DNA from: an uncultured Anaerococcus sp.
Lineage (GTDB): Bacteria > Bacillota > Clostridia > Tissierellales > Peptoniphilaceae
Length of the DNA stretch: 64,000 bases
Assembly (NCBI RefSeq): GCF_943908415.1
Contig: NZ_CALTSY010000004.1
Span: forward strand, 10,144-74,143
Direction of reading: 5' to 3'
Part shown: in pieces, positions 13,832-57,550 of the stretch
How the letters are laid out: each line of letters opens with the position of its first letter
How positions within the stretch are numbered: the stretch's first letter is position 1
Notes under the pieces: generated by a model
Told to the model about the DNA's origin: nothing
The model's input: only the letters and a program-made list of their open reading frames with translations
Databases searched by the model: none
Position numbers and translations under genes: made by a program

Positions 13832-15016
13832 TTATCTTTCAACGATAATAGCAGTACCCATTCCACCACCTATACATAATGTTGCAAGACCTCTTTTTGA
13901 GTCTCTTTTTTGCATTTCATAAAGTAAGGTTGTAAAAATTCTAGCTCCTGATGCTCCAATTGGGTGACCAAGTGCAATAGCACCACCGTTTACGTTTACA
14001 ATATCAGTATTTAAACTTAATTCTTTGATAACTGATAATGCTTGAGCTGCAAATGCTTCGTTAGCTTCGATAAGATCTAAGTCTTCTAATTTTAGATCAC
14101 CTTTTTCTAAAGCTTTTCTAACTGTTGGGATTGGGCCTGTACCCATGATTGCTGGGTCTACACCTTCTGTTGCATATGAAACTATAGTTGCTAGTGGAGT
14201 AACACCTAATTCTTTAGCTTTTTCTTCACTCATTACAACTAAAGCAGCAGAACCATCGTTTAGACCAGATGCATTTGCTGCAGTTACAGAACCACCATCT
14301 CTTTTGAATGCTGGTTTAAGGCCAGAAATACCTTCAGCTGTAACACCTTCTCTGATGTGTTCATCTGTATCTACAACTGTAACATTGCCTTTTCTATCTT
14401 TAATTTCTACAGGAACTATTTCATCTTTGAATCTACCTTCTGCACGTGCTTTTTCAGCTCTATTTTGACTTTCTGCAGCAAGTTGATCTTGTTCTTCACG
14501 AGTAAGACCGTATTTTTCTACTATGTTTTCAGCTGTCATACCCATGTGGTAGTCATTGAAAGCATCCCAAAGTCCGTCTTTGATCATCTCATCGACAACT
14601 TTTTTGTCTCCCATTCTAGCTCCCCATCTCTCATCATCTAATAGATATGGAGCATTAGACATAGATTCTGTACCACCAGCTACGATTATATCAGCATCTC
14701 CTGCTTTAATCATTTGAGCTGCTACTGATACTGATCTTAAGCCTGATCCACAAACAATATTAACTGTCATAGCTGGTTTTTCTTTAGGGATTCCAGCATC
14801 TATAGAAATTTGTCTAGCTACGTTTTGGCCTTGTCCTGCTTGAAGTACACAACCAAATACTGTTTCATCAACATCTTCTGGTTTAATTCCTGCTCTATTG
14901 ATAGCTTCTTTTACTGCAGTTACACCTAAATCTTTTGCAGATACTGATTTTAAAGCTCCGCCATAAGAACCTACTGGTGTTCTTGCTGCACTTGCTATTA
15001 CTACTTTTCTAGTCAT
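13832..15016 (-). CDS. thlA: acetyl-CoA C-acetyltransferase (thiolase)
   Basis: 394 aa with thiolase active-site motifs ([22 protein letters not shown]). Confidence 0.9.
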
Positions 15017-15062
15017 TTATTATCCTTCCTTTAATCTTTTATAATTAATTGTCTAATCTATC

Positions 15063-15905
15063 TTATTTGCTGTAGTCGTAGAAGCCTTTACCAGATTTTC
15101 TACCTAATTCACCAGCTGCAACTTTTTGTCTAAGAAGCACTGGAGCAGCATATTTATCATTACCAAAGGTATCTTTAAAGTAATCCATAACACTGAGTAT
15201 TATGTCTAGTCCAATAAGATCTGCTAATTCTAAAGGTCCCATTGGGTGGTTTGCACCAAGTTTCATTGCTGTATCAATATCTTCTGGTTTTGCAAGTCCT
15301 TCTTGAAGTACATAGATACCTTCAGAAACCATTGGGATAAGAATTCTGTTTACTACAAATCCTGGAGCTTCTTTTACTTCTACTGGTGTTTTACCAATTT
15401 CTTCAGTAATTGATTTTACTTTTTCTACAGTTTCATCGCTTGTTGTAATACCTTTTATAAGTTCTACAAGTTTCATGATTGCTGCTGGGTTAAAGAAGTG
15501 CATACCTATAACTTTATCAGGTCTATTTGTAGCTGCTGCTATTTCTGTAATAGAGATTGATGAAGTGTTTGAAGCAAGTATTGTATCTTCTTTACAAAGT
15601 TCATCTAATTCTTTGAATATAGATTTTTTGATTTCTGGATTTTCACTTGCAGCTTCAACTATTAAATCACAGTCTTTAAGTTCATTTACATCTGTAGTGA
15701 ATGTAAGTCTTCCTAGATATTCATTCTTTTGATCTTCTGTGATTCTTTCTTTTGCTACAGATTTTTCAAAAGATTTTGTTATTATAGATTTACCTTTATC
15801 AACAAATTCATCTTTGATATCTCTAACTACAACATCGTATTTCTTGCTTGCAACTTCAGCAATGCCAGCACCCATTGTACCTGCACCAATTACACCTATT
15901 TTCAT
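15063..15905 (-). CDS. hbd: 3-hydroxybutyryl-CoA dehydrogenase
   Basis: 280 aa with N-terminal GAGTMG Rossmann fold, a 3HCDH family member. Confidence 0.9.
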   Translation of the reverse strand: MKIGVIGAGTMGAGIAEVASKKYDVVVRDIKDEFVDKGKSIITKSFEKSVAKERITEDQKNEYLGRLTFTTDVNELKDCDLIVEAASENPEIKKSIFKELDELCKEDTILASNTSSISITEIAAATNRPDKVIGMHFFNPAAIMKLVELIKGITTSDETVEKVKSITEEIGKTPVEVKEAPGFVVNRILIPMVSEGIYVLQEGLAKPEDIDTAMKLGANHPMGPLELADLIGLDIILSVMDYFKDTFGNDKYAAPVLLRQKVAAGELGRKSGKGFYDYSK

Positions 15906-15916
15906 CTTATCTCTCC

Positions 15917-16696
15917 TTATTTGTTTTGAAATTCAGCTTTTTCTTTGTTGATAAAAGCTTGTGTTCCGGTTTTCATATCTTCAGTTGAGAAAATTAATCC
16001 AAAGTTGTTTTCCTCAATATATAAAGCTGTGTCTATATCAGCTTGAGCACCCTCATTTATAGCTGATTTAGAAAGTCTTACACCTATAGGAGCTTTGCTT
16101 GCGATTTGATTTGCCAATTCATTTACTCTATTATCAAGTTCTTCTGGCTCAACAACATCTTGTACAAGTCCTATTTCATAAGCCTTGTCTGCCTTTATAT
16201 TTTCAGCTGAGTAAATTAAATACTTAGCCCATCCTTGTCCTACAAGTCTTTGTAATCTTTGAGTTCCACCAAATCCCGGGATTAGACCAAGACCTACTTC
16301 AGGTTGACCAAATAATGCTTTAGAACTTGCAATTCTAATATCACAGCTCATAGCTAGTTCACATCCACCACCTAAAGCGAAACCGTTTACCTCTGCTATA
16401 ACTGGGATTGGTAAGCTTTCAATTTTTCTAAATACATCTATACCAGTTTTTGAAAAGTCCACTGCTCCTAAGGTATCAAGTTTTGACATTTCTTTTATAT
16501 CAGCTCCTGCTATGAAAGATCTGCCACCACCAGTTATTATAAGTACTCTTAAGTCTTTATTTTCAATTACCTCATCAAGTACCTTATCTAACTCACCTAA
16601 AACTTCAGAATTTAATGCGTTAAGTGCATCAGGTCTATCCATGGTTATTTTAGCAATATATCCATCAGTATCATACTTAATAGTATTATAGGTCAT
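15917..16696 (-). CDS. crt: short-chain enoyl-CoA hydratase (crotonase)
   Basis: 259 aa in the crotonase fold (GGGCELAM). Confidence 0.85.
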   Translation of the reverse strand: MTYNTIKYDTDGYIAKITMDRPDALNALNSEVLGELDKVLDEVIENKDLRVLIITGGGRSFIAGADIKEMSKLDTLGAVDFSKTGIDVFRKIESLPIPVIAEVNGFALGGGCELAMSCDIRIASSKALFGQPEVGLGLIPGFGGTQRLQRLVGQGWAKYLIYSAENIKADKAYEIGLVQDVVEPEELDNRVNELANQIASKAPIGVRLSKSAINEGAQADIDTALYIEENNFGLIFSTEDMKTGTQAFINKEKAEFQNK

Positions 16697-16814: not shown

Positions 16815-17819
16815 TTATTTACCTTTTTTTTCTCTAATTTTTTCAGTTAATGCTGGAACAACTTCAAATAAATCGCCTACTATACCATAGTCTGCTACAG
16901 TGAAGATTGGTGCATCTGGATCTTTATTTATAGCTATTATAGTATCACTAGCTCCTATACCAGCCAAGTGTTGGATAGCTCCAGAAATTCCTATTGCAAT
17001 GTAAACTTTAGGTCCTACAGTTGTACCTGATTGTCCAACTTGGTGAGAGTGTGAAATCCATCCTTCATCTACTAATGGACGAGATGATCCTACTGAACCT
17101 TCAAGTGCATCTGCTAGGTCTTCAATTAACTTAAAGTTAGCTGAATCTCCAAGTCCACGTCCACCTGATACGATGTATTCAGCAGCTGTTAAGTCTACAT
17201 CATCTCCCTCATCGCGAGGTATGAAGTCAAGTATTTTTGTTCTAACTTCTCCAGTGTATTCGATTTCTTCTGAGATTTCTTCTATATTCTCTTTTTGATT
17301 TTCTTCTGGCTTAGTAAATACACCAGGTCTTACAGTACCCATTTGTGGTCTGTTATCTGGAGATAAGATTTGAGCCATTAAGTTTCCACCAAATGCTGGT
17401 CTTGTCCACTTAACATCACCTGTTTCAAAGTCTACATCTAATTCTGTACAGTCTGCTGTAAGTCCTGTACCAAGTCTTGATGAAACTCTAGGTCCTAAGT
17501 CTCTACCATTTTGTGTTGCACCAATTAAGATAACATTAGGGCTATGTTTTTCAACAAGTTTACAAATAGCATTTGTATAAACATCAGTGTTGTATTCTTT
17601 GTAAGTTTCACCTTCTACAGAAATCACCTTATCAACACCATATTTTTTAACTTCTTCGCGAGCTTTTTCAACGTTTTCGCCAACAAGTACTGCTACTAGG
17701 TCTTCTTTTAACATATCAGCCATTTTTCTACCTGGATTCATTAGTTCCAAGCCGACATTTAATGCTGAACCATCTTCTTTTGTTTCAACAAATACCCAAA
17801 GATTTTTATTTTCTGACAT
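16815..17819 (-). CDS. etfA: electron transfer flavoprotein alpha subunit
   Basis: 334 aa with the EtfA FAD domain. Confidence 0.9.
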   Translation of the reverse strand: MSENKNLWVFVETKEDGSALNVGLELMNPGRKMADMLKEDLVAVLVGENVEKAREEVKKYGVDKVISVEGETYKEYNTDVYTNAICKLVEKHSPNVILIGATQNGRDLGPRVSSRLGTGLTADCTELDVDFETGDVKWTRPAFGGNLMAQILSPDNRPQMGTVRPGVFTKPEENQKENIEEISEEIEYTGEVRTKILDFIPRDEGDDVDLTAAEYIVSGGRGLGDSANFKLIEDLADALEGSVGSSRPLVDEGWISHSHQVGQSGTTVGPKVYIAIGISGAIQHLAGIGASDTIIAINKDPDAPIFTVADYGIVGDLFEVVPALTEKIREKKGK

Positions 17820-17828
17820 GATTCCTCC

Positions 17829-18638
17829 TTAAATTAGCTTCTCATCAGCCAAAGCTGCAATTAACTTATCTACAGCTTCTTCAGGCTCCATATTTTCATA
17901 TATTTCCCCAGCTTTTTGGATATCTGGTGCATATGATTTAGCTACTCTTGTAGGAGAACCTTTTAAGCCTATTTTTGACTCGTCAATTGTGTCAGCCATA
18001 TCTTCAAAAGTCACTTGCTCAATTTCAGCTTTTTTAGCTTTTAATTTATCTTTTATTTTAGGATATCTTAATTCGATATCTTTATATTTTGTAAATGTTA
18101 CAAGTGCTGGCACTACTGATTGTATGTTTCTTGCTCCACCTTCTGCTTCTTGTAAAACTTTTATTCCTTCATCATTTAATTCAACTGTGTATCCACGTGT
18201 TACTTGTGGTAAACCTAATAGTTCAGCAACTTCTGGTCCTACTTGAGCAGTATCACCATCTATAGCTTGCATACCACAGAAGACTAAATCTGGTTCGCCT
18301 TCTTCTTTTGCAACTGTCTTAATAGCATTTGATAGGATGTAGCTTGTAGCAAGTGTATCAGATCCACCGAATTTTCTATCTGTTACTAAATAAGCTTTAT
18401 CAGCTCCAACAGCTAAACAATCTCTTAACATAGATTCTGCTTGATTTGGTCCCATTGATATAACAATTATTTTAGTATCAGGGTCATTATCTTTAATTCT
18501 TAAAGCTTGCTCTAAAGCAAATGCGTCATAAGTATTTAATATACTTGGAACACCTTTTCTAACTAAAGTATTTGTTACAGGATCAATCTTAATTTCATTT
18601 GTATCCGGTACTTGCTTTGCACATACAAAAATGTTCAT
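17829..18638 (-). CDS. etfB: electron transfer flavoprotein beta subunit
   Basis: 269 aa of EtfB. Confidence 0.9.
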   Translation of the reverse strand: MNIFVCAKQVPDTNEIKIDPVTNTLVRKGVPSILNTYDAFALEQALRIKDNDPDTKIIVISMGPNQAESMLRDCLAVGADKAYLVTDRKFGGSDTLATSYILSNAIKTVAKEEGEPDLVFCGMQAIDGDTAQVGPEVAELLGLPQVTRGYTVELNDEGIKVLQEAEGGARNIQSVVPALVTFTKYKDIELRYPKIKDKLKAKKAEIEQVTFEDMADTIDESKIGLKGSPTRVAKSYAPDIQKAGEIYENMEPEEAVDKLIAALADEKLI

Positions 18639-19805: not shown

Positions 19806-19881
19806 ATTATCTCCTTTAATCATTTTCGTTAACATTTATTATATACCCAATTGCTTAGGCTATAATCTATCAACCACTTTC

Positions 19882-19899
19882 TTGTTACAAATATAACAA
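19882..19899. promoter_or_regulatory. Rex-like operator (TTGTTACAAATATAACAA) overlapping the bcd promoter
   Basis: 18-bp inverted repeat matching the clostridial Rex consensus TTGTTAAnnnnTTAACAA at 6/7 positions in each half-site. It overlaps the -10 region ~50-65 nt upstream of bcd, with TTGACA 16 nt upstream. Confidence 0.5.
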
Positions 19900-20161
19900 T
19901 AAAATTGTCTTTTGTCAAGTTTATTTGATTATTTTATTTTACAAAATGACTTTCAAGTTAAGATGTTAACACAGATAACAAATACGTTAATTATTTGTTT
20001 TATATGCAATATCTTTTTTATTTTAGAAAATGTTTGCCTTTTTTATAGGTTATTAGTTTATCATAATAAAAAATATAAAATATTATAGACATAGTAGTTT
20101 TTTATTTTATTATAAGCGAATTTCTTTTTGGATTAGTCCAATTATATTTTAAGATAAAATT

Positions 20162-20190
20162 TTTACAAACTATTTTGTTTATGCTATAAT
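20162..20190 (+). promoter_or_regulatory. sigma-A-type promoter for the FAD dehydrogenase/lactate module
   Basis: TTTACA, 17-nt spacer, TATAAT, ~55 nt upstream of the ATG at 20244. Confidence 0.45.
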
Positions 20191-20243
20191 GAAAACGAAA
20201 TCACGAAGGATTTCATAAATTTGTTTAAAATCTAGGAGGAATT

Positions 20244-21665
20244 ATGACAGATTACAACAAAATTAATGACGACATTATTTTACAAATAGAAGATAGTGTT
20301 TCCGGCAATGTTTACGTCGGAGAAGAAATTAATGAAGATTTTTTCCATGATGAAATGCCTATATATGGTTCAGGTATTCCTGATGCTTTAGTAGATGTAA
20401 AATCAACAGAAGAAGTTGCTGCAGTAGTTAAAATCTGTAACGAAAATAAAATTCCTGTATTAGCAAGAGGTGCTGGATCAGGCTTAACTGGTGCCGGTGT
20501 TGCTATGAGTCAAGGTGTCATGATTAATATGCAACCTATGAATCAAATACTTGAATATGATGAAGATAATATGGTTGTTCGCGTTCAACCAGGTGTATTC
20601 CTTAACGACTTGGCAGAAGATTGCCTATCAAAAGGTTACCTATATCCACCAGATCCAGGTGAAAAATTTGCAACTCTAGGTGGAAACGTATCAACAAATG
20701 CAGGTGGTATGCGTGCTGTTAAATACGGAACTACTAGAAACTATGTAAGAAGTATGGAAGTTGTACTACCAACAGGCGAAATCACAAACTTTGGAGCAGT
20801 TGTAAGTAAGTCTTCAACAGGTTATGACTTAAAAGACTTAATGATCGGAAGTGAAGGAACACTAGGTATAATCACAGAATTAACTCTAAAAATTGTACCA
20901 GCTCCAAAAGCAACAATTTCATTAATAGTACCTTTTGAAAACTTAGATGACTGTATTTCTACAGTTCCAAAATTATTCAAAAACAATTTAAATCCACAAG
21001 CTATAGAATTTATGGAAAGAAAAATCGTCCTAGCTTCAGAGAAGTACATAGGTAGAGAAACTTTCCCTAAAAACTTAGATGGAGTAGATGCTAATGCTTA
21101 CCTACTTATCACATTTGATGGCGACAATGAAGACGAATTATATGATGTTCTTGAAAGAGCAGCAGAAATATTAGTTGAAAACGGAGCTATCGATTGTCTA
21201 GTAGCTGATACACCAAATGCTATAAAAGATGCATGGGCTGCAAGAAGCTCCTTCCTAGAAGCTATAGAAACTCAATACGAATTATTAGACGAATGTGACG
21301 TAGTAGTTCCAATAACAAAAATAGCTGAATATGTAAACTTCGTAAATGCAGAAGCTGAAAAATACATGTTTGATGTTCAAAGCTTTGGTCACGCTGGTGA
21401 TGGTAACCTTCATATTTATACTCTTTCAAATGAAGTAGATAAACATGATGAGTTTGTTGCTGAAGTTGATAAATTCATGGATGTAATTTATCAAAAAGCA
21501 TATGATCTAGGTGGTAAAATCTCTGGTGAACACGGAATAGGCTATGGTAAATTAAAATACTTAAAAGGATTTGAAGGGGATATAAATACTGACCTTATGA
21601 AAGGAATCAAAAAAGTATTCGATCCAAACCTAATACTTAACCCAAATAAAGTTATTGGTCTATAG
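20244..21665 (+). CDS. FAD-binding oxidoreductase, GlcD/D-lactate dehydrogenase family
   Basis: 473 aa with an FAD_binding_4 domain and a FAD-oxidase C-terminal domain. Confidence 0.8.
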   Translation: MTDYNKINDDIILQIEDSVSGNVYVGEEINEDFFHDEMPIYGSGIPDALVDVKSTEEVAAVVKICNENKIPVLARGAGSGLTGAGVAMSQGVMINMQPMNQILEYDEDNMVVRVQPGVFLNDLAEDCLSKGYLYPPDPGEKFATLGGNVSTNAGGMRAVKYGTTRNYVRSMEVVLPTGEITNFGAVVSKSSTGYDLKDLMIGSEGTLGIITELTLKIVPAPKATISLIVPFENLDDCISTVPKLFKNNLNPQAIEFMERKIVLASEKYIGRETFPKNLDGVDANAYLLITFDGDNEDELYDVLERAAEILVENGAIDCLVADTPNAIKDAWAARSSFLEAIETQYELLDECDVVVPITKIAEYVNFVNAEAEKYMFDVQSFGHAGDGNLHIYTLSNEVDKHDEFVAEVDKFMDVIYQKAYDLGGKISGEHGIGYGKLKYLKGFEGDINTDLMKGIKKVFDPNLILNPNKVIGL

Positions 21666-21683
21666 AAATAAAAGGAATATATT

Positions 21684-22031
21684 ATGAATTATTTAAAAGA
21701 ATTCGTAATCCTTTGTGCGTGTTTACTATTAGGCTCTTTAACAAGAAAATTAATTGACTTCCCTATTCCTGAAGCTGTGTATGGTATGATTTACCTATTC
21801 ATTGCTTTAAGGTTTAACATACTCAAGCCAGAAGAAATTGAAAAAACTTCAAATGGTATATTAGCAAACTTAGCCTTCCTATTTGTACCAGTTGGAGTTG
21901 GTATAATGGCAAATTATGAAGTAATAGAAGGTAGAATATTAAAATTATTAGTAATAGTTTTAATAGGAACTGCGGTAACCATGGGAGTAACAGGTGTTAT
22001 TGTCCAAGGTCTTCAAAGGAGAAAACAATGA
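21684..22031 (+). CDS. lrgA: CidA/LrgA family membrane protein
   Basis: 115 aa, four predicted TM helices, paired with LrgB. Confidence 0.75.
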   Translation: MNYLKEFVILCACLLLGSLTRKLIDFPIPEAVYGMIYLFIALRFNILKPEEIEKTSNGILANLAFLFVPVGVGIMANYEVIEGRILKLLVIVLIGTAVTMGVTGVIVQGLQRRKQ

Positions 22032-22729
22032 ATTTGATATTTGATAGTACCTACTTTGGTATAATCCTATCTTTTCTAGCCTTTGAAGTTGGAAAACGGA
22101 TAAATAGTAAAGTAAAAAATCCTGTTGCGAATCCCCTATTAATCGCTATACTTTTAGTAATAGCTTTTCTAAAAGTAACTGGTATACCTTATGAGCACTA
22201 TAAATTAGGAGGAGACTTTATAGCCTTCTTCATAGCTCCAGCAACAGTTGCAATGGTTTTAGACTTATATATAAATCTAGATTCTTTGAAAAAAAATATA
22301 ATCCCAATACTAGTGGGTGTTGTTGTTGGATCTATAGTTGCTATGCTCTTAGCTATATTTGTATCTAAGGGACTTGGACTTAAAGAAGATTTAGTCGTTT
22401 CTTTGGTACCACAGTCTATAACTACAGCTATAGCAATATCACTAACAGAAGAATATAACGGTATAGTTGCCCTAACTGCTATAATAGTTGTCTTAAGAGG
22501 GGTTATAGGTGCTGCTATTGCACCAGTAATACTAAAAGTATTTAAAATTACTGATCCTGTTGCACAAGGAGTAGCTATTGGTACATCTGCCCACGCTGTT
22601 GGAACTAGCGAAGCTAGAAAGATGGGACAAATCCAAGGGGCGATGTCTGGATTATCAATTGCCATAGCTGGTATTGTAACAGTTGTACTAATGCCATTAG
22701 CAATGTTAATTGTAAATTCAGTATTCTAA
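22028..22729 (+). CDS. lrgB: CidB/LrgB family membrane protein
   Basis: 233 aa polytopic membrane protein with a 4-bp overlap with lrgA. Confidence 0.75.
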   Translation: MNLIFDSTYFGIILSFLAFEVGKRINSKVKNPVANPLLIAILLVIAFLKVTGIPYEHYKLGGDFIAFFIAPATVAMVLDLYINLDSLKKNIIPILVGVVVGSIVAMLLAIFVSKGLGLKEDLVVSLVPQSITTAIAISLTEEYNGIVALTAIIVVLRGVIGAAIAPVILKVFKITDPVAQGVAIGTSAHAVGTSEARKMGQIQGAMSGLSIAIAGIVTVVLMPLAMLIVNSVF

Positions 22730-22859
22730 TAAATACAAAAAGCCATAAATTAAAATTTTATGGCTTTTTTGATATAAAATTATACTATAGTAAAACGCTA
22801 TGCAAAGGTTTTTATAGAAAATATGTCACCAAAATAATAAATTTAAGAAAGAGGATTTT

Positions 22860-24134
22860 ATGAAAATTAAACTACCATACGGAAAAACCTACCAAGAAGT
22901 AGAAGTTGCTGATAACAGAGTAAAAGCAATACTCGAATCAAGCCTTGAAGAATATCAGCCAGAAGATGACCAGCTAACAATAGTTAAAAAATCAATGGAA
23001 AATCCAATAGGAACTCCCAAATTAAAAGAATTAGCTGTCGGAAAAGATAAAGTAGTAATTCTTATCTCAGACCACACTAGACCAGTGCCTAGCAAATACA
23101 TACTTCCTTTGATGTTAGAAGAAATAAGAGAGGGAAATCCTAATGCTGATATTACCCTTCTAGTTGCTACAGGATGCCATCGTGAAACTACTAAAGAAGA
23201 GTTAATAGGCAAGATTGGTGAAGATATATATAATAACGAAAAAATATATATACATGATTGTGATGATGAATCAATGCTCGTTAAATTAGATCAAAAGCTA
23301 CCTTCTGGTGGTGACATAGTAGTTAATAAATTAGCTGCAGAAGCTGATTTATTAGTAGCAGAAGGATTTATTGAGCCTCACTTCTTTGCCGGTTATTCAG
23401 GTGGTAGAAAAAGCGTATTTCCAGGATGCTGTAGCCGTAAAGCAGTAATGTATAACCATAATGCTGAGTTTATCGATAGTGAGTATTCTAGAACTGGAAA
23501 TCTTGAAAACAACCCAATACACAAAGATATGATAGCTGCTGCTAGGGCTCTAGATTTAGTTTATATTGTAAACGTAGTAATCAATTCTGATAAAGAAGTT
23601 ATCCACTCAGTAGCTGGGGATTTAGAGCAAGCTCACGAATCTGGAACAGAATGGCTAAAAGAAAGAGCCGGTGTAGAAAAACAACTTGCAGATATAGCAA
23701 TCACTTCTAATGGAGGGTATCCTCTAGACCAAAATATCTATCAAGCTGTAAAATCAATGACAGCTGCAGAAGCAGCAGTTAAAGAAGGCGGTGTTATAAT
23801 AGTAAGCGCAGAATCTAGCGATGGAACAGGTGGAGATGCTTTCTATAACGCCTTCGTAGATGAACCTGATACCCAAAAATTATATCAGTCTTTCTTAGAT
23901 ACTCCTAAAATAAAGACAATCCCTGACCAATGGGAATCACAAATCCTATGTAGGGTTTTACTAAAAACTAAGGCAGTAATATATATATCTGATGTAGAAG
24001 ATGAAATTGTAGAAACTTTCCATATGATTCCAGCAAAATCATTAGATGAAGCTATGAAGAAAGCTGATGAGCTTATGGGTAGCGATAGTAGTATAACAGT
24101 AATACCTAACGGAATATCTGTTTTTGTAAAGTAA
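22860..24134 (+). CDS. larA: nickel-dependent lactate racemase
   Basis: 424 aa in the LarA/DUF2088 family. The lar maturation genes are adjacent. Confidence 0.85.
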   Translation: MKIKLPYGKTYQEVEVADNRVKAILESSLEEYQPEDDQLTIVKKSMENPIGTPKLKELAVGKDKVVILISDHTRPVPSKYILPLMLEEIREGNPNADITLLVATGCHRETTKEELIGKIGEDIYNNEKIYIHDCDDESMLVKLDQKLPSGGDIVVNKLAAEADLLVAEGFIEPHFFAGYSGGRKSVFPGCCSRKAVMYNHNAEFIDSEYSRTGNLENNPIHKDMIAAARALDLVYIVNVVINSDKEVIHSVAGDLEQAHESGTEWLKERAGVEKQLADIAITSNGGYPLDQNIYQAVKSMTAAEAAVKEGGVIIVSAESSDGTGGDAFYNAFVDEPDTQKLYQSFLDTPKIKTIPDQWESQILCRVLLKTKAVIYISDVEDEIVETFHMIPAKSLDEAMKKADELMGSDSSITVIPNGISVFVK

Positions 24135-24147
24135 AATATTAAAATAG

Positions 24148-24195
24148 TAAAAATAGCTAGCAATAATTATATGATTATTTGCTAGCTATTTTTAT
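24148..24195. terminator. bidirectional terminator (long near-perfect palindrome) between larA and larC
   Basis: AAAATAGCTAGCAATAAT...ATTATTTGCTAGCTATTTT, a ~18-bp stem. Confidence 0.5.
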
Positions 24196-24196
24196 T

Positions 24197-24577
24197 CTAA
24201 TTATTTGATATATTTCTTTGATCGTATAATTTTTTTAGAAAATCAAAGGCGACTTTTAGGCCGATATCCTTATTGTTTGCAAGTTCTTTTGCCGATTCAT
24301 ATTCTGGATAAATATAATTTGTATCATTATGTCTTACAATCTTATATCTATAATCCTTATTTTCATATCTTATAGTTTCTATCTTGCGATCTAATATATC
24401 CCTTTCTATAGGAATTTTTCTGATACCTATACTAGTAGAATGTTTAAATATCAAATCTTCAATTTTCTTTTCATTTTCTAAATCGCAAATAACTGATAGC
24501 TTGAATGCTGGTCTATTTTTTTTCATAAAGATAGGAGTATAAAATACATCAAGGGCATAATTCATAACTTCATCCAT
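24197..24577 (-). CDS. larC: LarC C-terminal segment (larC2-like)
   Basis: 126 aa from the first ATG. The reading frame is open upstream to 24643 (…KKTLEILETNIDDSTGELLGFL-MDEV…) and matches the LarC C-terminal domain. Confidence 0.75.
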   Translation of the reverse strand: MDEVMNYALDVFYTPIFMKKNRPAFKLSVICDLENEKKIEDLIFKHSTSIGIRKIPIERDILDRKIETIRYENKDYRYKIVRHNDTNYIYPEYESAKELANNKDIGLKVAFDFLKKLYDQRNISNN

Positions 24578-24630
24578 TAAAAATCCTAAAAGCTCTCCTG
24601 TGCTATCATCAATGTTAGTTTCTAAAATTT

Positions 24631-25464
24631 CTAGTGTTTTTTTTTACTAGTTTCAATTTCCATTACCCTTAGTATATTAGTGTACTTATCAAAGTCTCTA
24701 TTACCTGCTCCAAGACCTACATTGTTTATCTTAAAGCTATCTATCTTATGTCCCTTATCAAAGTATCTTACTATAGCTGCGCCAGTTGGTGTAACATGCT
24801 CACCAGCTTCATCCAATAGTTTTATGTTGATATCAGAGCCTGCTAGTATGTTAATTACAGCAGGAACTGGTATTGGCATCTGCCCATGGGCACAATTTTG
24901 ATAACCATAACCTTCATTAAGATCAGAAAAATAAATATTTTCTACATCTAAGTCATCTATAAGCACAGATGTGCCTATAATATCAATTATAGAATCAATG
25001 GCCCCCACCTCATGAAAATGAACTTCTGATTTATCAATGCCGTGAGCCTTAGCTTCAGCATCTGCAATTATATCAAATATTCCTAGGGCATTATCCTTAG
25101 CCCTCTGAGATATATCAGCCTTATCTATTAATTCAGTAACTTCCTTTAAATGTCTATGGACATGACTATCATGATGATGTGAGTGTGTATGTCCTTTAGA
25201 ACTTCCCTTTTCATGATGGTGATAATGCTTACCTTCTTGCTCATGAGAATGATCATGTTCATGTTTTTCACTATCTAAAATTACATCAAAATTATAGGCG
25301 TCTATGCCATTTTTATTTTTTCTATTAAAAACTAATTCATATCCATCAATGCCTAAAGAATCAATGGCCTTAACCAATTTTTCTTTGCTAGCTCCTAAAT
25401 CGAGTAAGGCTGCAATTGTCATATCTCCTGCTATTCCCGAGTTCATTTCAAAATATAAGTCCAT
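24631..25464 (-). CDS. larC: nickel insertion protein LarC, N-terminal segment (larC1-like) with a His-rich Ni-binding stretch
   Basis: 277 aa LarC N-domain with a His-rich region (HEHDHSHEQEGKHYHHHEKGSSKGHTHSHHHDSHVHRH). It ends …ETSKKKH* immediately after an A9 run. Confidence 0.8.
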   Translation of the reverse strand: MDLYFEMNSGIAGDMTIAALLDLGASKEKLVKAIDSLGIDGYELVFNRKNKNGIDAYNFDVILDSEKHEHDHSHEQEGKHYHHHEKGSSKGHTHSHHHDSHVHRHLKEVTELIDKADISQRAKDNALGIFDIIADAEAKAHGIDKSEVHFHEVGAIDSIIDIIGTSVLIDDLDVENIYFSDLNEGYGYQNCAHGQMPIPVPAVINILAGSDINIKLLDEAGEHVTPTGAAIVRYFDKGHKIDSFKINNVGLGAGNRDFDKYTNILRVMEIETSKKKH

Positions 25465-26211
25465 CTATTTCTCCTCTATAAGTTTATTAATCTGACAAGC
25501 ATTATAGGCTGCACTGTAGCCATTATCTATATTTACAACATTTACTCCTTCAGCACAAGTATTTAACATAGTCAGTAAGGCTGATAGGCCGTTAAAGCTA
25601 GCTCCATATCCAACAGATGTTGGCACAGCAATAATTGGTTTATTTACCAAACCACCTATTACCGTTGGCAAAGCACCTTCCATACCTGCAATAGCTATTA
25701 TTACATTGGCTTTTGAGATTTCATCTATCTTTGATGTAAGCCTATGCAATCCAGACACTCCTACATCATAAAATTTACTAACATTTGCCCCAAAAAATTC
25801 TGCTGTTATCCTAGCTTCTTCTGCCACTTTTAGATCTGCAGTACCTCCAGTACAAATAGCAATGTTTCCTATTTTTTTCTCTTGTCCATAAACAAGAGAA
25901 ATAATCCTAGATGTCTTATCATAGTTAGCTTCTGGAACTAGCTCTCTTACTTTTTCAAACTGATTAAGACTTGCTCTAGTTCCTATAACAGATTCCTTGC
26001 GTTCACTAAAAGTTTTGAAGATTTCGGCTAGGGCAAAGTCTTCTTTGCCCTCACAAAATATTGTCTCTCCAAATCCTCTACGTTCTTTTCTTTGAAAGTC
26101 CAGCTTTGCAAAATCTAAATCTTTATAATTAAAGTCCTTTAGATAAGCTATGCCGTCATTTATAGATATTTCTTCATTTTTAATTTTTTCTAAAAATTCT
26201 TTATTATTCAT
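25465..26211 (-). CDS. larB: nickel-pincer cofactor biosynthesis protein LarB (PurE-like carboxylase/hydrolase)
   Basis: 248 aa. Its C-terminal half is PurE-like (AIAGMEGALPTVIGGL...PTSVGYG). Confidence 0.8.
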   Translation of the reverse strand: MNNKEFLEKIKNEEISINDGIAYLKDFNYKDLDFAKLDFQRKERRGFGETIFCEGKEDFALAEIFKTFSERKESVIGTRASLNQFEKVRELVPEANYDKTSRIISLVYGQEKKIGNIAICTGGTADLKVAEEARITAEFFGANVSKFYDVGVSGLHRLTSKIDEISKANVIIAIAGMEGALPTVIGGLVNKPIIAVPTSVGYGASFNGLSALLTMLNTCAEGVNVVNIDNGYSAAYNACQINKLIEEK

Positions 26212-26212
26212 C

Positions 26213-27073
26213 TTATAACCAAGGATTCACTTCTTTTTTTATATCATCATATAAAACTTCATCCATAGAACCTGACCTATATCCTTCTAGATCGATATTT
26301 ACATACTTAAATCCTAAATCTTTAAATTTTTTGACTATATCCTCTGAATGTTTGAAAAGCTCATCTAGTTTTTCTTTTTTAACTTCAATTCTTGTATTAT
26401 CTCCATAAACCCTTACTCTATTATCAGTAAACCCTAAACTCTCTAAGTAGTTTTCAGCTTCTTCTATCATATCTAGTTTATCAAGATCAATTCTAGTATT
26501 GTAAGGGAATCTAGTAGCCATGCATGGTTTAGAAGGCTTCTTATGGGTTTCTACACCAAGTTCTTTTGAATATAGACGAACTTCTTTTTTGCTTAATCCA
26601 GCCTCATATAAAGGAGATCTAGTGCCTAGATCCTTTAAAGCTTTAATACCAGGCCTGAATACCTTATAGTCGTCCATATTAGTTCCATCAACTACATATC
26701 CATATCCTAGTTCATCTTTTAAATTAAAGCAATTTTCAAATAGTCCAGATTTGCAGTAATAACATCTATACTCTACATTATTTAGTAATTTTTCGTTATC
26801 CATAATGCTGTTATTGGAAACATATAAATCTACATCCATTTCCGAAGCCAAGCGCTTACATTCTTCTAGCTCATCCTTAGGAGAAAATTCTGTCACAAAA
26901 GTTATAGCAACTAGGTCATCCCTATTTTCTCTAAGATCCGCTGCAAGCTTTAATATCAGAGTACTATCTACTCCACCAGAAAAGGCCAATACCATCTTAT
27001 CTTCTAGCATTTCCTTTATTATTTTATTTAATTTTTCTTTCTTTTGATCACTTATACTATCTATTTCTGTCAT
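26213..27073 (-). CDS. larE: ATP-dependent sacrificial sulfur transferase LarE
   Basis: 286 aa with PP-loop SGGVDST. Sits in the lar context. Confidence 0.8.
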   Translation of the reverse strand: MTEIDSISDQKKEKLNKIIKEMLEDKMVLAFSGGVDSTLILKLAADLRENRDDLVAITFVTEFSPKDELEECKRLASEMDVDLYVSNNSIMDNEKLLNNVEYRCYYCKSGLFENCFNLKDELGYGYVVDGTNMDDYKVFRPGIKALKDLGTRSPLYEAGLSKKEVRLYSKELGVETHKKPSKPCMATRFPYNTRIDLDKLDMIEEAENYLESLGFTDNRVRVYGDNTRIEVKKEKLDELFKHSEDIVKKFKDLGFKYVNIDLEGYRSGSMDEVLYDDIKKEVNPWL

Positions 27074-27302
27074 ATGAAACTCCTAACAAATTCACATATA
27101 AAAAGTCAACTTAATTTCTTTAAACACTATAATTTTAACATAGTTTTACAAAAAATCACAACCAAAACTATTCTAAAAAATAAAAATTACAATAAAAATT
27201 TTTTTCTCTTCTTATTTATATGTATCATAAATAAAATTACTTAAACAAAAAAATCTGAGCATACAGGTCATATGCTCAGACTTTAACATTTGTTATCAAA
27301 AA

Positions 27303-27959
27303 TTATTCCATTACACCAACATTATCTGCCACTTTAAAATCAGCTTCAGTACATTCTTTGATATCTTCAACTTTATAACCTTCAGCTAACTCCATCAATA
27401 CGAGACCTTCTTCTGTAACTTTGAAGTAACAACGTTCTGTTATTATATCAGTGACACAATTGGCACCAGTTAATGGCAGGGTACACTTCTTTAATATCTT
27501 AGGATTACCACCTTTATCACAATGATCAGTAGCAACTATTATCCTCTTTACTCCAGAGCATAAATCCATTGCGCCGCCCATACCAGGAACCAATTTGCCA
27601 GGAATTTTCCAATTGGCTATATTTCCTTCTTGATCAACTTCTAATGTTCCAAGTACAGCTGCATCAACATGGCCACCTCTAATTAAACTGAATGAGCGCA
27701 ATACAGGGAATGCTGCTCCACCTTTTACTAAGGTTATTGGGCCTCCTCCAGCATCAAATAAATCAATATCCGCATCTTTTATTAGAGGAGTTTTGCCAGC
27801 ACCTGACGCACCAATCTCTTGCTCTAACCAGATATCCACACCTTCTGGTAAATAGTTAACACACTGACTAGGTATCCCTATTCCTAAATTAACAAAGTCT
27901 CCATCTTCAAAAAACTTTGCACAACGTGCTGCTATTAATTCTCTTCCTTTATAATCCAT
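27303..27959 (-). CDS. 3-oxoacid/acetate CoA-transferase subunit B
   Basis: 218 aa, AtoA/ScoB-like (…NLGIGIPS…). Confidence 0.8.
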   Translation of the reverse strand: MDYKGRELIAARCAKFFEDGDFVNLGIGIPSQCVNYLPEGVDIWLEQEIGASGAGKTPLIKDADIDLFDAGGGPITLVKGGAAFPVLRSFSLIRGGHVDAAVLGTLEVDQEGNIANWKIPGKLVPGMGGAMDLCSGVKRIIVATDHCDKGGNPKILKKCTLPLTGANCVTDIITERCYFKVTEEGLVLMELAEGYKVEDIKECTEADFKVADNVGVME

Positions 27960-27960
27960 A

Positions 27961-28683: not shown

Positions 28684-28691
28684 CTACCTTT

Positions 28692-29480: not shown

Positions 29481-29514
29481 AGCCTCTCCTTCCTGTCTTA
29501 TTTATATCTATTTA

Positions 29515-34075: not shown

Positions 34076-34088
34076 AAGTATCTCCTTA

Positions 34089-35213: not shown

Positions 35214-35214
35214 A

Positions 35215-57549: not shown

Positions 57550-57550
57550 A

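What the first reader, a model, noticed from the sequence alone, without database searches (positions are those of the whole stretch)
20244..27073. Lactate utilisation/racemisation module placed divergently against the bcd-etfBA butyrate operon (candidate confurcating LDH/Etf system with LrgAB as carrier)
A GlcD-like FAD dehydrogenase, LrgA/LrgB, nickel lactate racemase LarA and the complete LarE-LarB-LarC cofactor pathway sit head-to-head with bcd-etfB-etfA-crt-hbd-thl and a butyryl-CoA:acetate CoA-transferase. In Acetobacterium woodii and lactate-utilising butyrate producers, a GlcD-like LDH works with EtfAB for electron-confurcating lactate oxidation, and a racemase feeds the stereospecific enzyme. 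Here the only etfBA in the neighbourhood belongs to the bcd operon, which suggests a shared Etf. LrgAB homologues are known pyruvate (B. subtilis PftAB) and glycolate/glycerate (PLGG1) carriers, so this pair is a candidate lactate/pyruvate transporter rather than a holin/antiholin.
Basis: inference. Interest (0 to 1): 0.55.

Follow-up and report, generated by a model that had tools for sequence, protein, structure and literature searches.

The report
Lactate-to-butyrate module sharing the butyrate flavoprotein
An Anaerococcus genome carries a D-lactate dehydrogenase, a probable lactate/pyruvate carrier and a lactate racemase directly beside its butyrate operon. It lacks the dedicated electron-transfer flavoprotein that related lactate clusters carry, so it probably borrows the butyrate pathway's own.

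Summary

**What the dehydrogenase is.** The "GlcD-like" protein is not glycolate oxidase. It belongs to the LctD family of FAD/metal D-lactate dehydrogenases, and all ten active-site residues named for A. woodii Ldh are conserved. It is 47% identical to the confurcating A. woodii LctD. It is 66–75% identical to the Ldh of Fusobacterium/Peptoniphilus ldh-bcd-etfBA-lrgAB clusters. The F. nucleatum version of that cluster was shown in 2025 to pass lactate electrons through a canonical ETF to Bcd.

**How Anaerococcus differs.**
- Every other member of that clade I examined has a dedicated acad-etfB-etfA next to ldh, with a canonical-type EtfB.
- In all 26 Anaerococcus loci with readable upstream flank, ldh instead sits divergent from the central bcd-etfB-etfA butyrate operon. 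That operon's Etf is bifurcating-type and has no ferredoxin domain.

**Best reading.** LrgAB imports lactate, LarA racemises L-lactate to D-lactate, and LctD passes electrons to the shared Etf and on to Bcd/crotonyl-CoA. Confurcation to NAD+ is a possible second outlet.

**Verdict.** This is a new variant of a known kind. The main gap is that an unlinked Etf elsewhere in the genome could not be excluded.

The parts
12307..13647 (-). Butyryl-CoA:acetate CoA-transferase-like gene, last gene of the butyrate operon. Releases butyrate and consumes acetate.
   Evidence: Best NCBIfam hit TIGR03948, 583 bits, below the cut-off of 675. Conserved downstream of thl in the A. nagyae/marasmi-type loci.
13832..16696 (-). 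thl (13832-15016), hbd (15063-15905) and crt (15917-16696). These make crotonyl-CoA from acetyl-CoA.
   Evidence: NCBIfam hits to thiolase, 3-hydroxybutyryl-CoA dehydrogenase (430 bits, cut-off 408) and short-chain enoyl-CoA hydratase.
16815..17819 (-). EtfA, 334 aa, without an N-terminal ferredoxin domain. Proposed shared electron carrier (alpha-FAD).
   Evidence: Aligns to LctC residues 75-392 and to A. fermentans, C. difficile and CarE EtfA. All Anaerococcus orthologues are 333-335 aa, against 395-401 aa in A. woodii-type loci.
17829..18638 (-). EtfB of the bifurcating type.
   Evidence: The motif AIDGDTAQVG keeps Gly at A. fermentans position 123. The criterion comes from PMC12630350.
18669..19835 (-). 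Butyryl-CoA dehydrogenase of the classical type. Proposed final acceptor enzyme for lactate electrons.
   Evidence: Best solved relative is the Bcd of the C. difficile bifurcating Bcd-EtfAB complex, 5ol2_C, 538 bits. It has Tyr/Gln where lct-cluster Bcds have Phe/Ile-Leu.
19836..20243 (.). Divergent control region.
- **bcd promoter (minus strand):** TTGACA at 19918-19913 and TATATT at 19895-19890, overlapped by a TGTTA-N6-TAACA palindrome at 19883-19898.
- **lctD promoter (plus strand):** TTTACA at 20162-20167, 17 nt spacer, TG-TATAAT ending at 20190.
- **Ribosome-binding site:** AGGAGG before the ATG at 20244.
   Evidence: Promoter scan. The palindrome is invariant in 11 Anaerococcus species and unique in the window, with 0.13 matches expected by chance.
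20244..21665 (+). FAD- and metal-dependent D-lactate dehydrogenase of the LctD family, Fusobacterium Ldh subclade.
   Evidence: Pfam FAD_binding_4 + FAD-oxidase_C. 7qh2_C scores 448 bits, with L80, R328, L332, E344, D346, H377, H384, Y386, E422 and H423 all conserved. 66% identical to the Ldh of a Fusobacterium ldh-bcd-etfBA-lrgAB cluster.
21684..22031 (+). LrgA-family membrane protein, small subunit of the proposed lactate/pyruvate carrier.
   Evidence: Pfam LrgA, 97 bits. Starts 18 nt after lctD and overlaps lrgB by 4 nt. Follows lctD in 18 Anaerococcus loci.
22028..22729 (+). LrgB-family membrane protein, large subunit of the proposed carrier.
   Evidence: Pfam LrgB, 244 bits. 69% identical to P. 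olsenii LrgB and 42% to Fusobacterium lct-cluster LrgB.
22737..22769 (+). Terminator-like hairpin followed by a T-run. Ends the lctD-lrgAB unit.
   Evidence: reported on the minus strand; the repeat is symmetric. Sequence read.
22860..24134 (+). Nickel-pincer (NPN) lactate racemase LarA. Converts L-lactate to the D-form used by LctD.
   Evidence: NF033504, 601 bits against a cut-off of 460. 458-465 bits to solved LarA structures. R75, H108, H174, K184, H200, Q295 and K298 (L. plantarum numbering) are conserved.
24150..24192 (.). Inverted repeat between the convergent larA and larC2 genes, probably a bidirectional terminator.
   Evidence: Read directly from the sequence. Not reported by the scan.
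24197..24645 (-). LarC2 (CTP-binding) part of LarC. It lies in the -1 frame relative to larC1 and is reached across the A9 run at 24637-24645. The first ATG is at 24577, but the conserved LarC2 N-terminus (KKTLEILETNIDD) starts right after the A-run.
   Evidence: NF052512, 102 bits against a cut-off of 50. Frame analysis. The same layout is found in A. nagyae. The L. plantarum frameshift precedent is in PMC13510736.
24631..25464 (-). LarC1 (nickel-binding) part of the LarC cyclometallase.
   Evidence: TIGR00299, 193 bits against a cut-off of 90.
25465..26211 (-). LarB, the NaAD carboxylase/hydrolase of NPN cofactor synthesis.
   Evidence: NF033503, 288 bits against a cut-off of 175.
26213..27073 (-). 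LarE, the ATP-dependent sulfur transferase of NPN cofactor synthesis.
   Evidence: TIGR00268, 285 bits against a cut-off of 150.
27132..27284 (-). A terminator hairpin after ctfB (27250-27284), followed by a promoter-like site for larE (27161-27132). Together they make larEBC a separate transcription unit.

Best explanation
This is a lactate-utilisation module attached to the butyrate pathway of an Anaerococcus species.

**Proposed path**
1. LrgAB brings lactate into the cell (or exchanges lactate and pyruvate).
2. LarA, matured by LarB/LarC/LarE, converts L-lactate to D-lactate.
3. The LctD-family flavoenzyme oxidises D-lactate to pyruvate.
4. LctD has no Etf or Bcd of its own. It hands the two electrons to the alpha-FAD of the EtfAB encoded in the divergent bcd-etfB-etfA operon.
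5. That Etf passes them to Bcd, which reduces crotonyl-CoA. [quoted passage not shown]
6. The CoA-transferase releases butyrate with acetate.

Because this Etf is of the bifurcating type, a second outlet is possible: confurcation with reduced ferredoxin to give NADH.

**Shown here**
- Gene identities and conserved active-site residues.
- Clade placement of the Ldh.
- Etf type.
- Genus-wide synteny.

**Inferred**
- The physical partnership between LctD and Etf.
- The direction of electron flow.
- The substrate of LrgAB.
For: 1. **LctD identity.** 448 bits to A. woodii LctD, with all ten residues named as forming the substrate-binding site conserved, including the metal ligands and the proposed catalytic base His423.
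2. **Clade.** It is 66% identical to the Ldh of a Fusobacterium ldh-bcd-etfB-etfA-lrgA-lrgB cluster and 72-75% to Peptoniphilus orthologues, against 47% to A. woodii LctD. [quoted passage not shown]
3. **Dependence on an ACAD/Etf pair.** In six non-Anaerococcus members of the clade examined (L026, L036, L052, L058, L059, L060), ldh is immediately followed by acad-etfB-etfA.
4. **Anaerococcus substitution.** That dedicated trio is absent. Instead ldh is divergent from the central bcd-etfB-etfA in all 26 loci with readable upstream flank. The window holds only one etfBA.
5. **Precedent for a bifurcating Etf serving both enzymes.** M. elsdenii D-LDH -> ETF -> BCD (Brockman and co-workers 1975; Chowdhury et al. 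2015, as summarised in PMC12630350). The same scheme is proposed for A. hallii in that paper.
6. **LrgAB.**
   - It follows ldh in 18 Anaerococcus loci and is in the same cluster in Peptoniphilus and Fusobacterium.
   - An LctP lactate permease fills the transporter slot in L060.
   - S. aureus LrgAB restores growth on lactate and pyruvate in a four-transporter mutant (PMC12632267).
7. **LarA and LarBCE.** All pass the curated cut-offs, and LarA keeps its catalytic residues. larA also sits beside ldh in L059 and in the A. woodii lct operon (established knowledge).
Against: - No biochemistry or expression data exist for this organism.
- I could not scan whole Anaerococcus genomes, so a dedicated canonical etfBA elsewhere is not excluded. 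The one homology search aimed at this was saturated by Peptoniphilus hits.
- The Ldh clade otherwise partners with canonical ETFs (Phe/Tyr/Thr at the Gly123 position) and with Bcds bearing a Phe signature. The adjacent Etf and Bcd are of the other type, so a change of partner has to be assumed.
- The two units are divergent, not co-transcribed. The conserved palindrome lies about 265 bp from the lctD promoter, so co-regulation is not shown.
- lrgAB is missing next to ldh in 8 Anaerococcus loci. larA/larEBC are found next to it only in this species and in A. nagyae. Only the ldh / bcd-etfBA pairing is core.
Confidence: 0.6

Rival explanations
1. A. woodii-style electron confurcation. LctD forms a complex with the shared bifurcating EtfAB and oxidises lactate with NAD+ as acceptor, driven by co-oxidation of reduced ferredoxin. 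Bcd is not directly involved.
For: - The adjacent EtfB keeps the bifurcating-type Gly123 and groups with bifurcating Etfs.
- The LctD active site is conserved with A. woodii Ldh.
- The pathway needs one NADH per butyrate for Hbd, which confurcation could supply (inference).
- A 2-oxoacid:ferredoxin oxidoreductase and an [FeFe]-hydrogenase in the window show ferredoxin metabolism is present.
Against: - The Ldh is only 47% identical to A. woodii LctD and lies in the sister clade, whose characterised member works without NAD+ or ferredoxin (PMC12630350).
- EtfA lacks the N-terminal ferredoxin domain present in LctC and in the A. woodii-type loci L030-L034. Truncating that domain abolished confurcation in A. 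woodii (PMC9232219).
- This reading is not exclusive of the best explanation. With a bifurcating Etf, confurcation plus Bcd bifurcation sum to the same net reaction.
Confidence: 0.25
2. The adjacency to bcd-etfBA is historical rather than functional. LctD uses an Etf (canonical type) or another acceptor encoded elsewhere in the genome, or acts mainly as an O2-reactive lactate oxidase during oxidative stress.
For: - All other members of this Ldh clade examined use canonical-type Etfs.
- The units are divergent with separate promoters.
- The F. nucleatum Ldh has measurable lactate oxidase activity, and its cluster is under an oxidative-stress regulator (PMC12630350).
- A superoxide reductase gene lies nearby at 31004-31363.
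Against: - The divergent pairing is kept in 26 of 26 loci across a genus whose Ldh sequences have diverged to 75% identity, while the downstream flank varies freely.
- No second etfBA lies within the 64 kb window or within 10 kb of ldh in any Anaerococcus locus.
- No named Anaerococcus protein appeared among the top relatives of the Peptoniphilus canonical EtfB. That list was saturated, so this is weak evidence.
Confidence: 0.15
3. The FAD enzyme is a glycolate oxidase or another 2-hydroxyacid dehydrogenase, and LrgAB is a holin/antiholin-type cell-death modulator unrelated to it.
For: - Database names for orthologues include 'glycolate oxidase subunit GlcD' and '2-hydroxy-acid oxidase'.
- The best NCBIfam hits for LrgA/LrgB carry antiholin names.
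Against: - The protein is below the GlcD equivalog cut-off (365 against 568). No GlcE/GlcF is present.
- It scores twice as high against LctD as against glycolate oxidase.
- The orthologous Fusobacterium-type enzyme is D-lactate specific (PMC12630350).
- LarA sits next to it.
- lrgAB is co-transcribed with ldh (18-nt gap, 4-nt overlap), and an LctP permease replaces it in L060.
- The LrgA/LrgB scores are below the S. aureus-type equivalog cut-offs.
Confidence: 0.05

Closest known systems
Fusobacterium nucleatum lct cluster FN1531-1536: Ldh, Bcd, canonical EtfBA, LrgAB (Do, Godin & Wolthers, J Biol Chem 2025, PMC12630350)
   Same: - The Ldh is in the same clade (66% identity to the orthologous Fusobacterium cluster L052).
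- lrgAB is linked to ldh.
- A Bcd and an EtfBA lie next to ldh.
[quoted passage not shown]
- Peptoniphilus, the sister genus, has exactly this six-gene order.
   Different: - There is no dedicated Bcd/EtfBA. The neighbours are the central butyrate-pathway genes, on the opposite strand.
- EtfB has the bifurcating-type Gly rather than Phe/Tyr. Bcd has Tyr/Gln rather than Phe/Ile.
- A lactate racemase and its cofactor genes are added, and no GntR regulator is adjacent.
[quoted passage not shown]
Megasphaera elsdenii D-lactate dehydrogenase -> ETF -> butyryl-CoA dehydrogenase chain (Baldwin & Milligan 1964; Brockman and co-workers 1975; ETF shown to be bifurcating by Chowdhury et al. 2015; all as summarised in PMC12630350)
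   Same: A FAD-dependent D-lactate dehydrogenase and a Bcd share one bifurcating-type ETF. That organism also has a lactate racemase activity (my recollection of Hino & Kuroda 1993, not checked here).
   Different: - In M. elsdenii the ldh and etf genes are not clustered (PMC12630350). Here they are neighbours across the whole genus.
- M. elsdenii's relationship to this Ldh clade was not tested here.
Acetobacterium woodii LctBCD electron-confurcating lactate dehydrogenase/Etf complex with LctE permease and LctF racemase (Weghoff et al. 2015; structure 7QH2, PMC9232219)
   Same: LctD-family dehydrogenase with identical active-site residues. Bifurcating-type EtfB signature. A LarA-type racemase accompanies the dehydrogenase.
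   Different: - Sister clade (47% identity).
- No co-transcribed lctB/lctC.
- EtfA lacks the ferredoxin domain.
- LrgAB replaces an LctP permease.
- No Bcd is involved in A. woodii.
Lachnospiraceae lct clusters with LctG, an alternative Bcd (Anaerobutyricum, Anaerostipes, Coprococcus catus; Sheridan et al. 2022, PMC8914356)
   Same: Lactate plus acetate to butyrate. iLDH, Etf and a Bcd are linked, and a racemase is often present.
   Different: - Those clusters carry their own Etf and their own Bcd (LctG), distinct from the central pathway copies, together with an LctP permease.
- Here the central copies appear to serve, and the transporter is LrgAB.
LrgAB / PftAB monocarboxylate carriers (B. 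subtilis PftAB, PMC5626966; S. mutans LrgAB, PMC6790026; S. aureus LrgAB, PMC12632267)
   Same: Same two Pfam families, with the two genes adjacent and overlapping. The experimentally supported substrates of these carriers are pyruvate and, in S. aureus, lactate, which are the substrate and product of the neighbouring enzyme.
   Different: - Scores are below the NCBIfam equivalog cut-offs.
- No LytSR-type two-component regulator is adjacent.
- The genes are co-transcribed with a lactate dehydrogenase rather than standing alone.

Membership tests
LctD-family FAD/metal D-lactate dehydrogenase | Two-domain FAD-linked oxidase fold, with the metal ligands His377/His384/Glu422, the catalytic His423 and the substrate-binding Arg328 (A. 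woodii numbering, PMC9232219) | tested here: met
   Pfam domains. All ten named active-site residues are conserved in the alignment to 7qh2_C.
A. woodii-type confurcating LctBCD complex | Dedicated etfB/etfA (lctB/lctC) co-transcribed with lctD | tested here: not met
   The only etfBA in 64 kb is in the divergent bcd operon. A. woodii-like loci L030-L034 have etfB-etfA-lctD in one direction.
A. woodii-type confurcating LctBCD complex | EtfA with an N-terminal ferredoxin ([4Fe-4S]) domain, whose truncation abolished confurcation in A. woodii (PMC9232219) | tested here: not met
   EtfA is 334 aa and aligns from LctC residue 75 onward. A. woodii-type loci have EtfA of 395-401 aa.
A. woodii-type confurcating LctBCD complex | EtfB able to bind beta-FAD (Gly at A. 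fermentans position 123) | tested here: met
   AIDGDTAQVG in the window and in all Anaerococcus orthologues.
A. woodii-type confurcating LctBCD complex | Ferredoxin- and NAD+-dependent lactate oxidation | not testable with these tools
   Needs an enzyme assay.
Fusobacterium-type lct cluster (Ldh - canonical ETF - Bcd - LrgAB) | Ldh of the same clade | tested here: met
   66% identity to L052 Ldh and 72-75% to Peptoniphilus. They group together in the NJ tree, apart from A. woodii LctD. L052 matches the published signatures: Bcd Ile247/Phe360, and EtfB Phe at position 129 against the published Phe130.
Fusobacterium-type lct cluster (Ldh - canonical ETF - Bcd - LrgAB) | lrgA-lrgB in the cluster | tested here: met
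   Here they lie directly after ldh.
Fusobacterium-type lct cluster (Ldh - canonical ETF - Bcd - LrgAB) | Canonical ETF, with a bulky residue in place of EtfB Gly123 | tested here: not met
   Gly in the window. Phe, Tyr or Thr in L026, L036, L052, L058, L059 and L060.
Fusobacterium-type lct cluster (Ldh - canonical ETF - Bcd - LrgAB) | Dedicated Bcd directly after ldh, with Phe360 and Ile/Leu247 | tested here: not met
   The adjacent Bcd is the classical Tyr/Gln type and is divergent. The Phe-bearing ACAD at 29515-30657 has its nearest relatives in unrelated clusters.
Glycolate oxidase GlcDEF | GlcD equivalog score, and GlcE/GlcF partner genes | tested here: not met
   TIGR00387 scores 365 bits against a cut-off of 568. 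No GlcE/GlcF appears among the window ORFs scanned.
Nickel-pincer lactate racemase system (LarA + LarB/C/E) | LarA equivalog score and the catalytic/cofactor residues His108, His174, Lys184 and His200 (L. plantarum numbering; residue roles recalled from Desguin et al. 2015) | tested here: met
   601 bits against a cut-off of 460, well above the malate-racemase models. The residues are conserved in the alignment to 5HUQ/8EZF.
Nickel-pincer lactate racemase system (LarA + LarB/C/E) | Complete cofactor pathway: LarB, LarC (C1 + C2) and LarE | tested here: met
   All four models score above their cut-offs. LarC1/LarC2 are joined through a -1 frame change at an A9 run.
LrgAB/CidAB family | LrgA and LrgB Pfam domains in adjacent genes | tested here: met
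   97 and 244 bits, above gathering scores.
LrgAB/CidAB family | Equivalog-level identity to S. aureus-type LrgA/LrgB, and control by an adjacent LytSR-type system | tested here: not met
   Best equivalog scores are 82 for LrgA (cut-off 124) and 198 for LrgB (cut-off 264). No two-component system is adjacent. The only one in the window (55253-57576) sits beside PhoU and phosphate-ABC-like genes.
LrgAB/CidAB family | Transport of lactate or pyruvate | not testable with these tools
   Needs uptake assays or complementation.

The most novel reading that the evidence does not exclude
Within the Ldh clade that normally travels with its own canonical ETF and its own Bcd, the Anaerococcus lineage has lost that dedicated pair. 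It has re-wired the dehydrogenase onto the central, bifurcating Bcd-EtfAB.

One Etf would then act as a two-way hub. It would take lactate electrons straight to crotonyl-CoA. When crotonyl-CoA is limiting, it would run backwards as a confurcating lactate:NAD+ oxidoreductase, without the ferredoxin domain that A. woodii needs.

That would be a natural example of an ETF partner switch from canonical to bifurcating type.
Probability: 0.35. Interest if true: 0.55.

Novelty: new variant of a known kind. Interest (0 to 1): 0.4.

Why it matters
**Ecology.** Anaerococcus and Peptoniphilus are common on skin, in the vagina and in wounds, where D- and L-lactate are abundant. A short route from lactate to butyrate would help explain how these cocci feed on lactobacillus or host lactate, and why lactate falls while butyrate rises in dysbiosis.

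**Mechanism.** The locus offers a natural comparison with its sister genus. Peptoniphilus has the same Ldh with a dedicated canonical ETF and Bcd. Anaerococcus has it with only the central bifurcating Bcd-Etf. [quoted passage not shown]

**Transport.** It adds comparative support (LrgAB in three genera, LctP in the same slot elsewhere) for reading LrgAB as a monocarboxylate carrier rather than a holin.

Tried and rejected
1. **Second ACAD as the dedicated lct-type Bcd.** I considered the ACAD at 29515-30657, which is 57% identical to lct-cluster Bcds and carries the Phe signature. I rejected it. Its nearest relatives (75-77%) sit in Lachnospiraceae clusters with a CoA-transferase, a FabA-like dehydratase, an MFS transporter and an AbfD-like protein, not with ldh. 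The four-gene block holding it is absent from A. nagyae.
2. **Looking for an unlinked canonical Etf in Anaerococcus.** I searched with the Peptoniphilus canonical EtfB. The 120 listed hits were all unnamed or from Peptoniphilus, so the result is inconclusive.
3. **Looking for a shared operator for the two divergent promoters.**
   - Only the bcd-proximal TGTTA-N6-TAACA palindrome is conserved.
   - A second similar site near 19961 has 7-nt spacing and is not conserved.
   - A short GAAATC-N6-GATTTC repeat after the lctD -10 element is not conserved beyond A. nagyae.
4. **Literature on lactate/Etf in Anaerococcus.** One search combining these terms returned no papers. A broader one returned only general reviews and surveys, which I did not read.
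5. **LctP permease or GlcE/GlcF in the window.** None was found among the ORFs scanned. Five ORFs of at least 100 aa were not scanned against Pfam: 46-537, 4194-4916, 4916-5269, 11831-12265 and 48322-48774. All are 240 aa or shorter, well below the size of an LctP permease (531 aa in L060).
6. **Structure prediction and fold search.** Not used. Sequence-level matches to solved structures were unambiguous.

Full report
**1. What is in the sequence**

The window has about 32% G+C and comes from an Anaerococcus species. The dehydrogenase is 93% identical to that of A. nagyae DSM 101193. One window protein is 100% identical to an entry named 'uncultured Anaerococcus sp.'.

Plus strand:
- A 473-aa FAD_binding_4/FAD-oxidase_C protein (20244-21665).
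- LrgA (21684-22031).
- LrgB (22028-22729).
- LarA (22860-24134).

Minus strand, converging on larA:
- LarE (26213-27073).
- LarB (25465-26211).
- LarC1 (24631-25464).
- LarC2 (24197-24577).

Transcription units, from sequence:
- lctD-lrgA-lrgB form one tight unit (18-nt gap, 4-nt overlap). It has a strong promoter-like site, TTTACA-17-TGnTATAAT at 20162-20190, and ends at a hairpin plus T-run at 22737-22769.
- larA stands alone. An inverted repeat at about 24150-24192 separates it from larC2.
- larE-larB-larC lies behind a terminator hairpin at 27250-27284 and has its own promoter-like site.

The same layout recurs on independent metagenome contigs.

**2. What the dehydrogenase is**

- Against solved structures, the best match by far is the LctD subunit of the A. 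woodii lactate dehydrogenase/Etf complex (7qh2_C, 448 bits). A glycolate oxidase scores 234 bits.
- It misses the NCBIfam GlcD equivalog cut-off (365 against 568).
- No GlcE/GlcF is present.
- The ten residues that the A. woodii structure paper names as forming the lactate and metal site are all conserved (PMC9232219). They are Leu80, Arg328, Leu332, Glu344, Asp346, His377, His384, Tyr386, Glu422 and His423.

**3. Which LctD clade, and why that matters**

A database search shows the nearest relatives outside Anaerococcus are Peptoniphilus (72-76%) and then Fusobacterium (66-68%).

A neighbour-joining tree and identity table resolve two sister clades:
- One holds A. woodii LctD and the loci with etfB-etfA-lctD order (L030-L034). 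The window protein is 47-48% identical to these.
- The other holds Anaerococcus, Peptoniphilus and Fusobacterium.

A Fusobacterium locus fetched for an orthologue (L052) reads GntR, ldh, acad, etfB, etfA, lrgA, lrgB. Its Bcd has Ile247/Phe360 and its EtfB has Phe at position 129. These match the signatures published for the F. nucleatum FN1531-1536 cluster (Ile247/Phe360 in Bcd; Phe130 in EtfB).

For that cluster, Do, Godin and Wolthers (J Biol Chem 2025, PMC12630350) showed that a canonical ETF carries two electrons from a D-lactate-specific Ldh to Bcd. [quoted passage not shown] Peptoniphilus has the same six-gene order (L026, L036).

**4. The comparative pattern**

I classified each Etf by the criterion used in that paper: Gly at A. 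fermentans EtfB position 123 in bifurcating ETFs, and a bulkier residue in canonical ones.

| Loci | Gene order | EtfB position 123 | EtfA length |
|---|---|---|---|
| Six non-Anaerococcus members of the clade (L026, L036, L052, L058, L059, L060; G+C where computed 30-57%) | ldh immediately followed by acad-etfB-etfA | Phe, Tyr or Thr | 320-328 aa |
| A. woodii-type loci (L030-L034) | etfB-etfA-lctD | Gly | 395-401 aa (ferredoxin domain present) |
| Anaerococcus, all 26 loci with readable upstream flank | ldh divergent from bcd-etfB-etfA of the butyrate operon; no dedicated acad-etfBA | Gly | 333-335 aa |

The Bcds of five of the six non-Anaerococcus loci (L026 was not examined) carry Phe at position 360. 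The Anaerococcus Bcd is the classical type. It has Tyr/Gln at the two signature positions, and its best solved relative is the Bcd of the C. difficile bifurcating complex (538 bits).

The window has only one etfB and one full-length etfA.

The region downstream of ldh is fluid:
- lrgAB follows in 18 loci.
- lrgAB is absent in 8 loci. In some of these ldh abuts a convergent 428-aa ORF of the same size and position as the window's hisS (not checked by profile search).
- larA with larEBC is present only here and in A. nagyae.

The invariant core is therefore ldh next to bcd-etfBA.

**5. Mechanism proposed**

Every relative of this Ldh is wedded to an ACAD/Etf pair. In Anaerococcus the only such pair in reach is the central one, and it is kept adjacent across the genus. 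The most economical reading is that LctD reduces the alpha-FAD of the butyrate-pathway Etf, which then reduces Bcd and crotonyl-CoA.

- This is thermodynamically downhill (-190 mV to -10 mV, values as quoted in PMC12630350).
- It has a biochemical precedent with a bifurcating ETF in Megasphaera elsdenii (D-LDH -> ETF -> BCD; history summarised in PMC12630350).
- The same paper proposes it for Anaerobutyricum hallii.

Because the Etf is bifurcating-type, reverse operation is also conceivable: lactate + reduced ferredoxin + 2 NAD+ -> pyruvate + 2 NADH. It could supply the NADH that Hbd needs. This part is inference. It is weakened by the missing ferredoxin domain in EtfA, whose truncation abolished confurcation in A. 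woodii (PMC9232219).

The remaining steps follow established pathway knowledge: thl, hbd and crt make crotonyl-CoA, and the CoA-transferase releases butyrate with acetate.

**6. LrgAB**

Pfam assigns both proteins securely. They fall below the NCBIfam equivalog cut-offs for the staphylococcal proteins, and no LytSR-type regulator is adjacent.

Evidence for a carrier role in this module:
- Co-transcription with ldh.
- Conserved linkage in three genera despite rearrangement of the other genes.
- An LctP lactate permease in place of lrgAB in cluster L060, and no transporter in L058/L059.
- Published transport data: pyruvate for B. subtilis PftAB and S. mutans LrgAB. S. aureus LrgAB restores growth on both lactate and pyruvate in a four-transporter mutant (PMC12632267).

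The F. nucleatum authors also speculate that LrgAB moves pyruvate and/or lactate. Direction and substrate remain untested. Import of lactate, export of pyruvate or exchange are all possible.

**7. Racemase branch**

LarA passes the lactate-racemase equivalog cut-off (601 against 460). It scores far above the malate-racemase and other LarA-homologue models. It keeps Arg75, His108, His174, Lys184, His200, Gln295 and Lys298 in alignment with the L. plantarum enzyme. LarB, LarC1, LarC2 and LarE all pass their cut-offs.

A D-specific dehydrogenase plus a racemase gives access to both lactate isomers, as in the A. woodii and Lachnospiraceae lct clusters (PMC8914356). This branch is present only in this species and in A. 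nagyae among the loci fetched, so it is a lineage-specific add-on.

**8. Comparison, novelty and limits**

The system works like the F. nucleatum and M. elsdenii chains. It is not a member of the F. nucleatum cluster type in the strict sense, because the canonical ETF and the dedicated Bcd are both tested and not met. It is not a member of the A. woodii LctBCD type either, because it has no dedicated etfBA, no ferredoxin domain, and sits in the sister clade.

I found no paper describing this arrangement or lactate/Etf metabolism in Anaerococcus. I therefore rate it a new variant of a known kind, of moderate interest.

The main weakness is that I could not search whole Anaerococcus genomes for an unlinked second Etf. 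The one indirect attempt was inconclusive. No expression or enzyme data exist.

Noticed in passing
window 24631-24648 (minus strand); L002 about 17372-17395: larC1 ends in AGT AAA AAA AAA CAC TAG. The LarC2 reading frame (KKTLEILETNIDD...) continues in the -1 frame straight after this A9 run, upstream of the first ATG at 24577. A. nagyae has the same A9-plus-stop layout. This looks like a conserved programmed -1 frameshift or transcriptional slippage site, as described for L. plantarum larC1/larC2 (PMC13510736).
   Followed up: partly
window 19883-19898: A TGTTA-N6-TAACA palindrome overlaps the -10 element of the bcd promoter. It is invariant in 11 Anaerococcus species and unique in the 64 kb (0.13 matches expected by chance). 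It resembles the clostridial Rex operator TTGTTAANNNNTTAACAA (from memory), which suggests NADH/NAD+-responsive control of the butyrate operon.
   Followed up: partly
window 9953-11650 (-): A 565-aa acyl-CoA dehydrogenase is fused to the FAD-binding C-terminal domain of EtfA (42% identical to the window's own EtfA over 133 aa). [quoted passage not shown] It lacks the rubredoxin, and no flavodiiron gene was detected in the flanking ORFs.
   Followed up: partly
window 27303-30657 (-): A four-gene block of acyl-CoA dehydrogenase (Phe at the Bcd-360 position), crotonase-like protein and CoA-transferase subunits A and B is inserted between larE and a superoxide reductase gene. It is absent at this position in A. 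nagyae. The nearest relatives of the ACAD (75-77%) are in Lachnospiraceae clusters with an AbfD-like dehydratase and a divergent etfBA. The substrate is unknown.
   Followed up: partly
window 34089-37024 (-), with 32984-34162 and 38438-39751: A 2-oxoacid:ferredoxin oxidoreductase cluster whose gamma subunit is fused to a rubrerythrin/ferritin-like domain (374 aa). It lies next to a Glu/Leu/Phe/Val-type dehydrogenase and a branched-chain amino-acid carrier, so it is probably a branched-chain amino-acid oxidation module.
   Followed up: no
L002 14057-16950: In A. nagyae an ABC transporter lies between larA and larC2: a FecCD-type permease, an ATPase and a 405-aa ORF. It may be a metal (nickel?) uptake system for the racemase cofactor. 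It is missing from the window.
   Followed up: no
L058 1243-11366: In an unidentified organism of about 50% G+C, the same Ldh clade is co-directional with a 2-hydroxyacyl-CoA dehydratase (activator plus two HGD-D subunits), a CoA-transferase, an ACAD and a canonical-type EtfBA. This looks like an acrylate-pathway (lactate to propionate) cluster in which lactate oxidation could feed acryloyl-CoA reduction.
   Followed up: no
L052 57-2835: The Fusobacterium locus has LUD-domain/Fe-S genes upstream of the D-lactate cluster, which look like LutB/LutC-type L-lactate utilisation genes. Both lactate isomers may therefore be handled there without a racemase.
   Followed up: no
window 53354-54886 (-): An [FeFe]-hydrogenase large-subunit protein with several 4Fe-4S domains, a likely outlet for reduced ferredoxin in this fermentation.
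   Followed up: no
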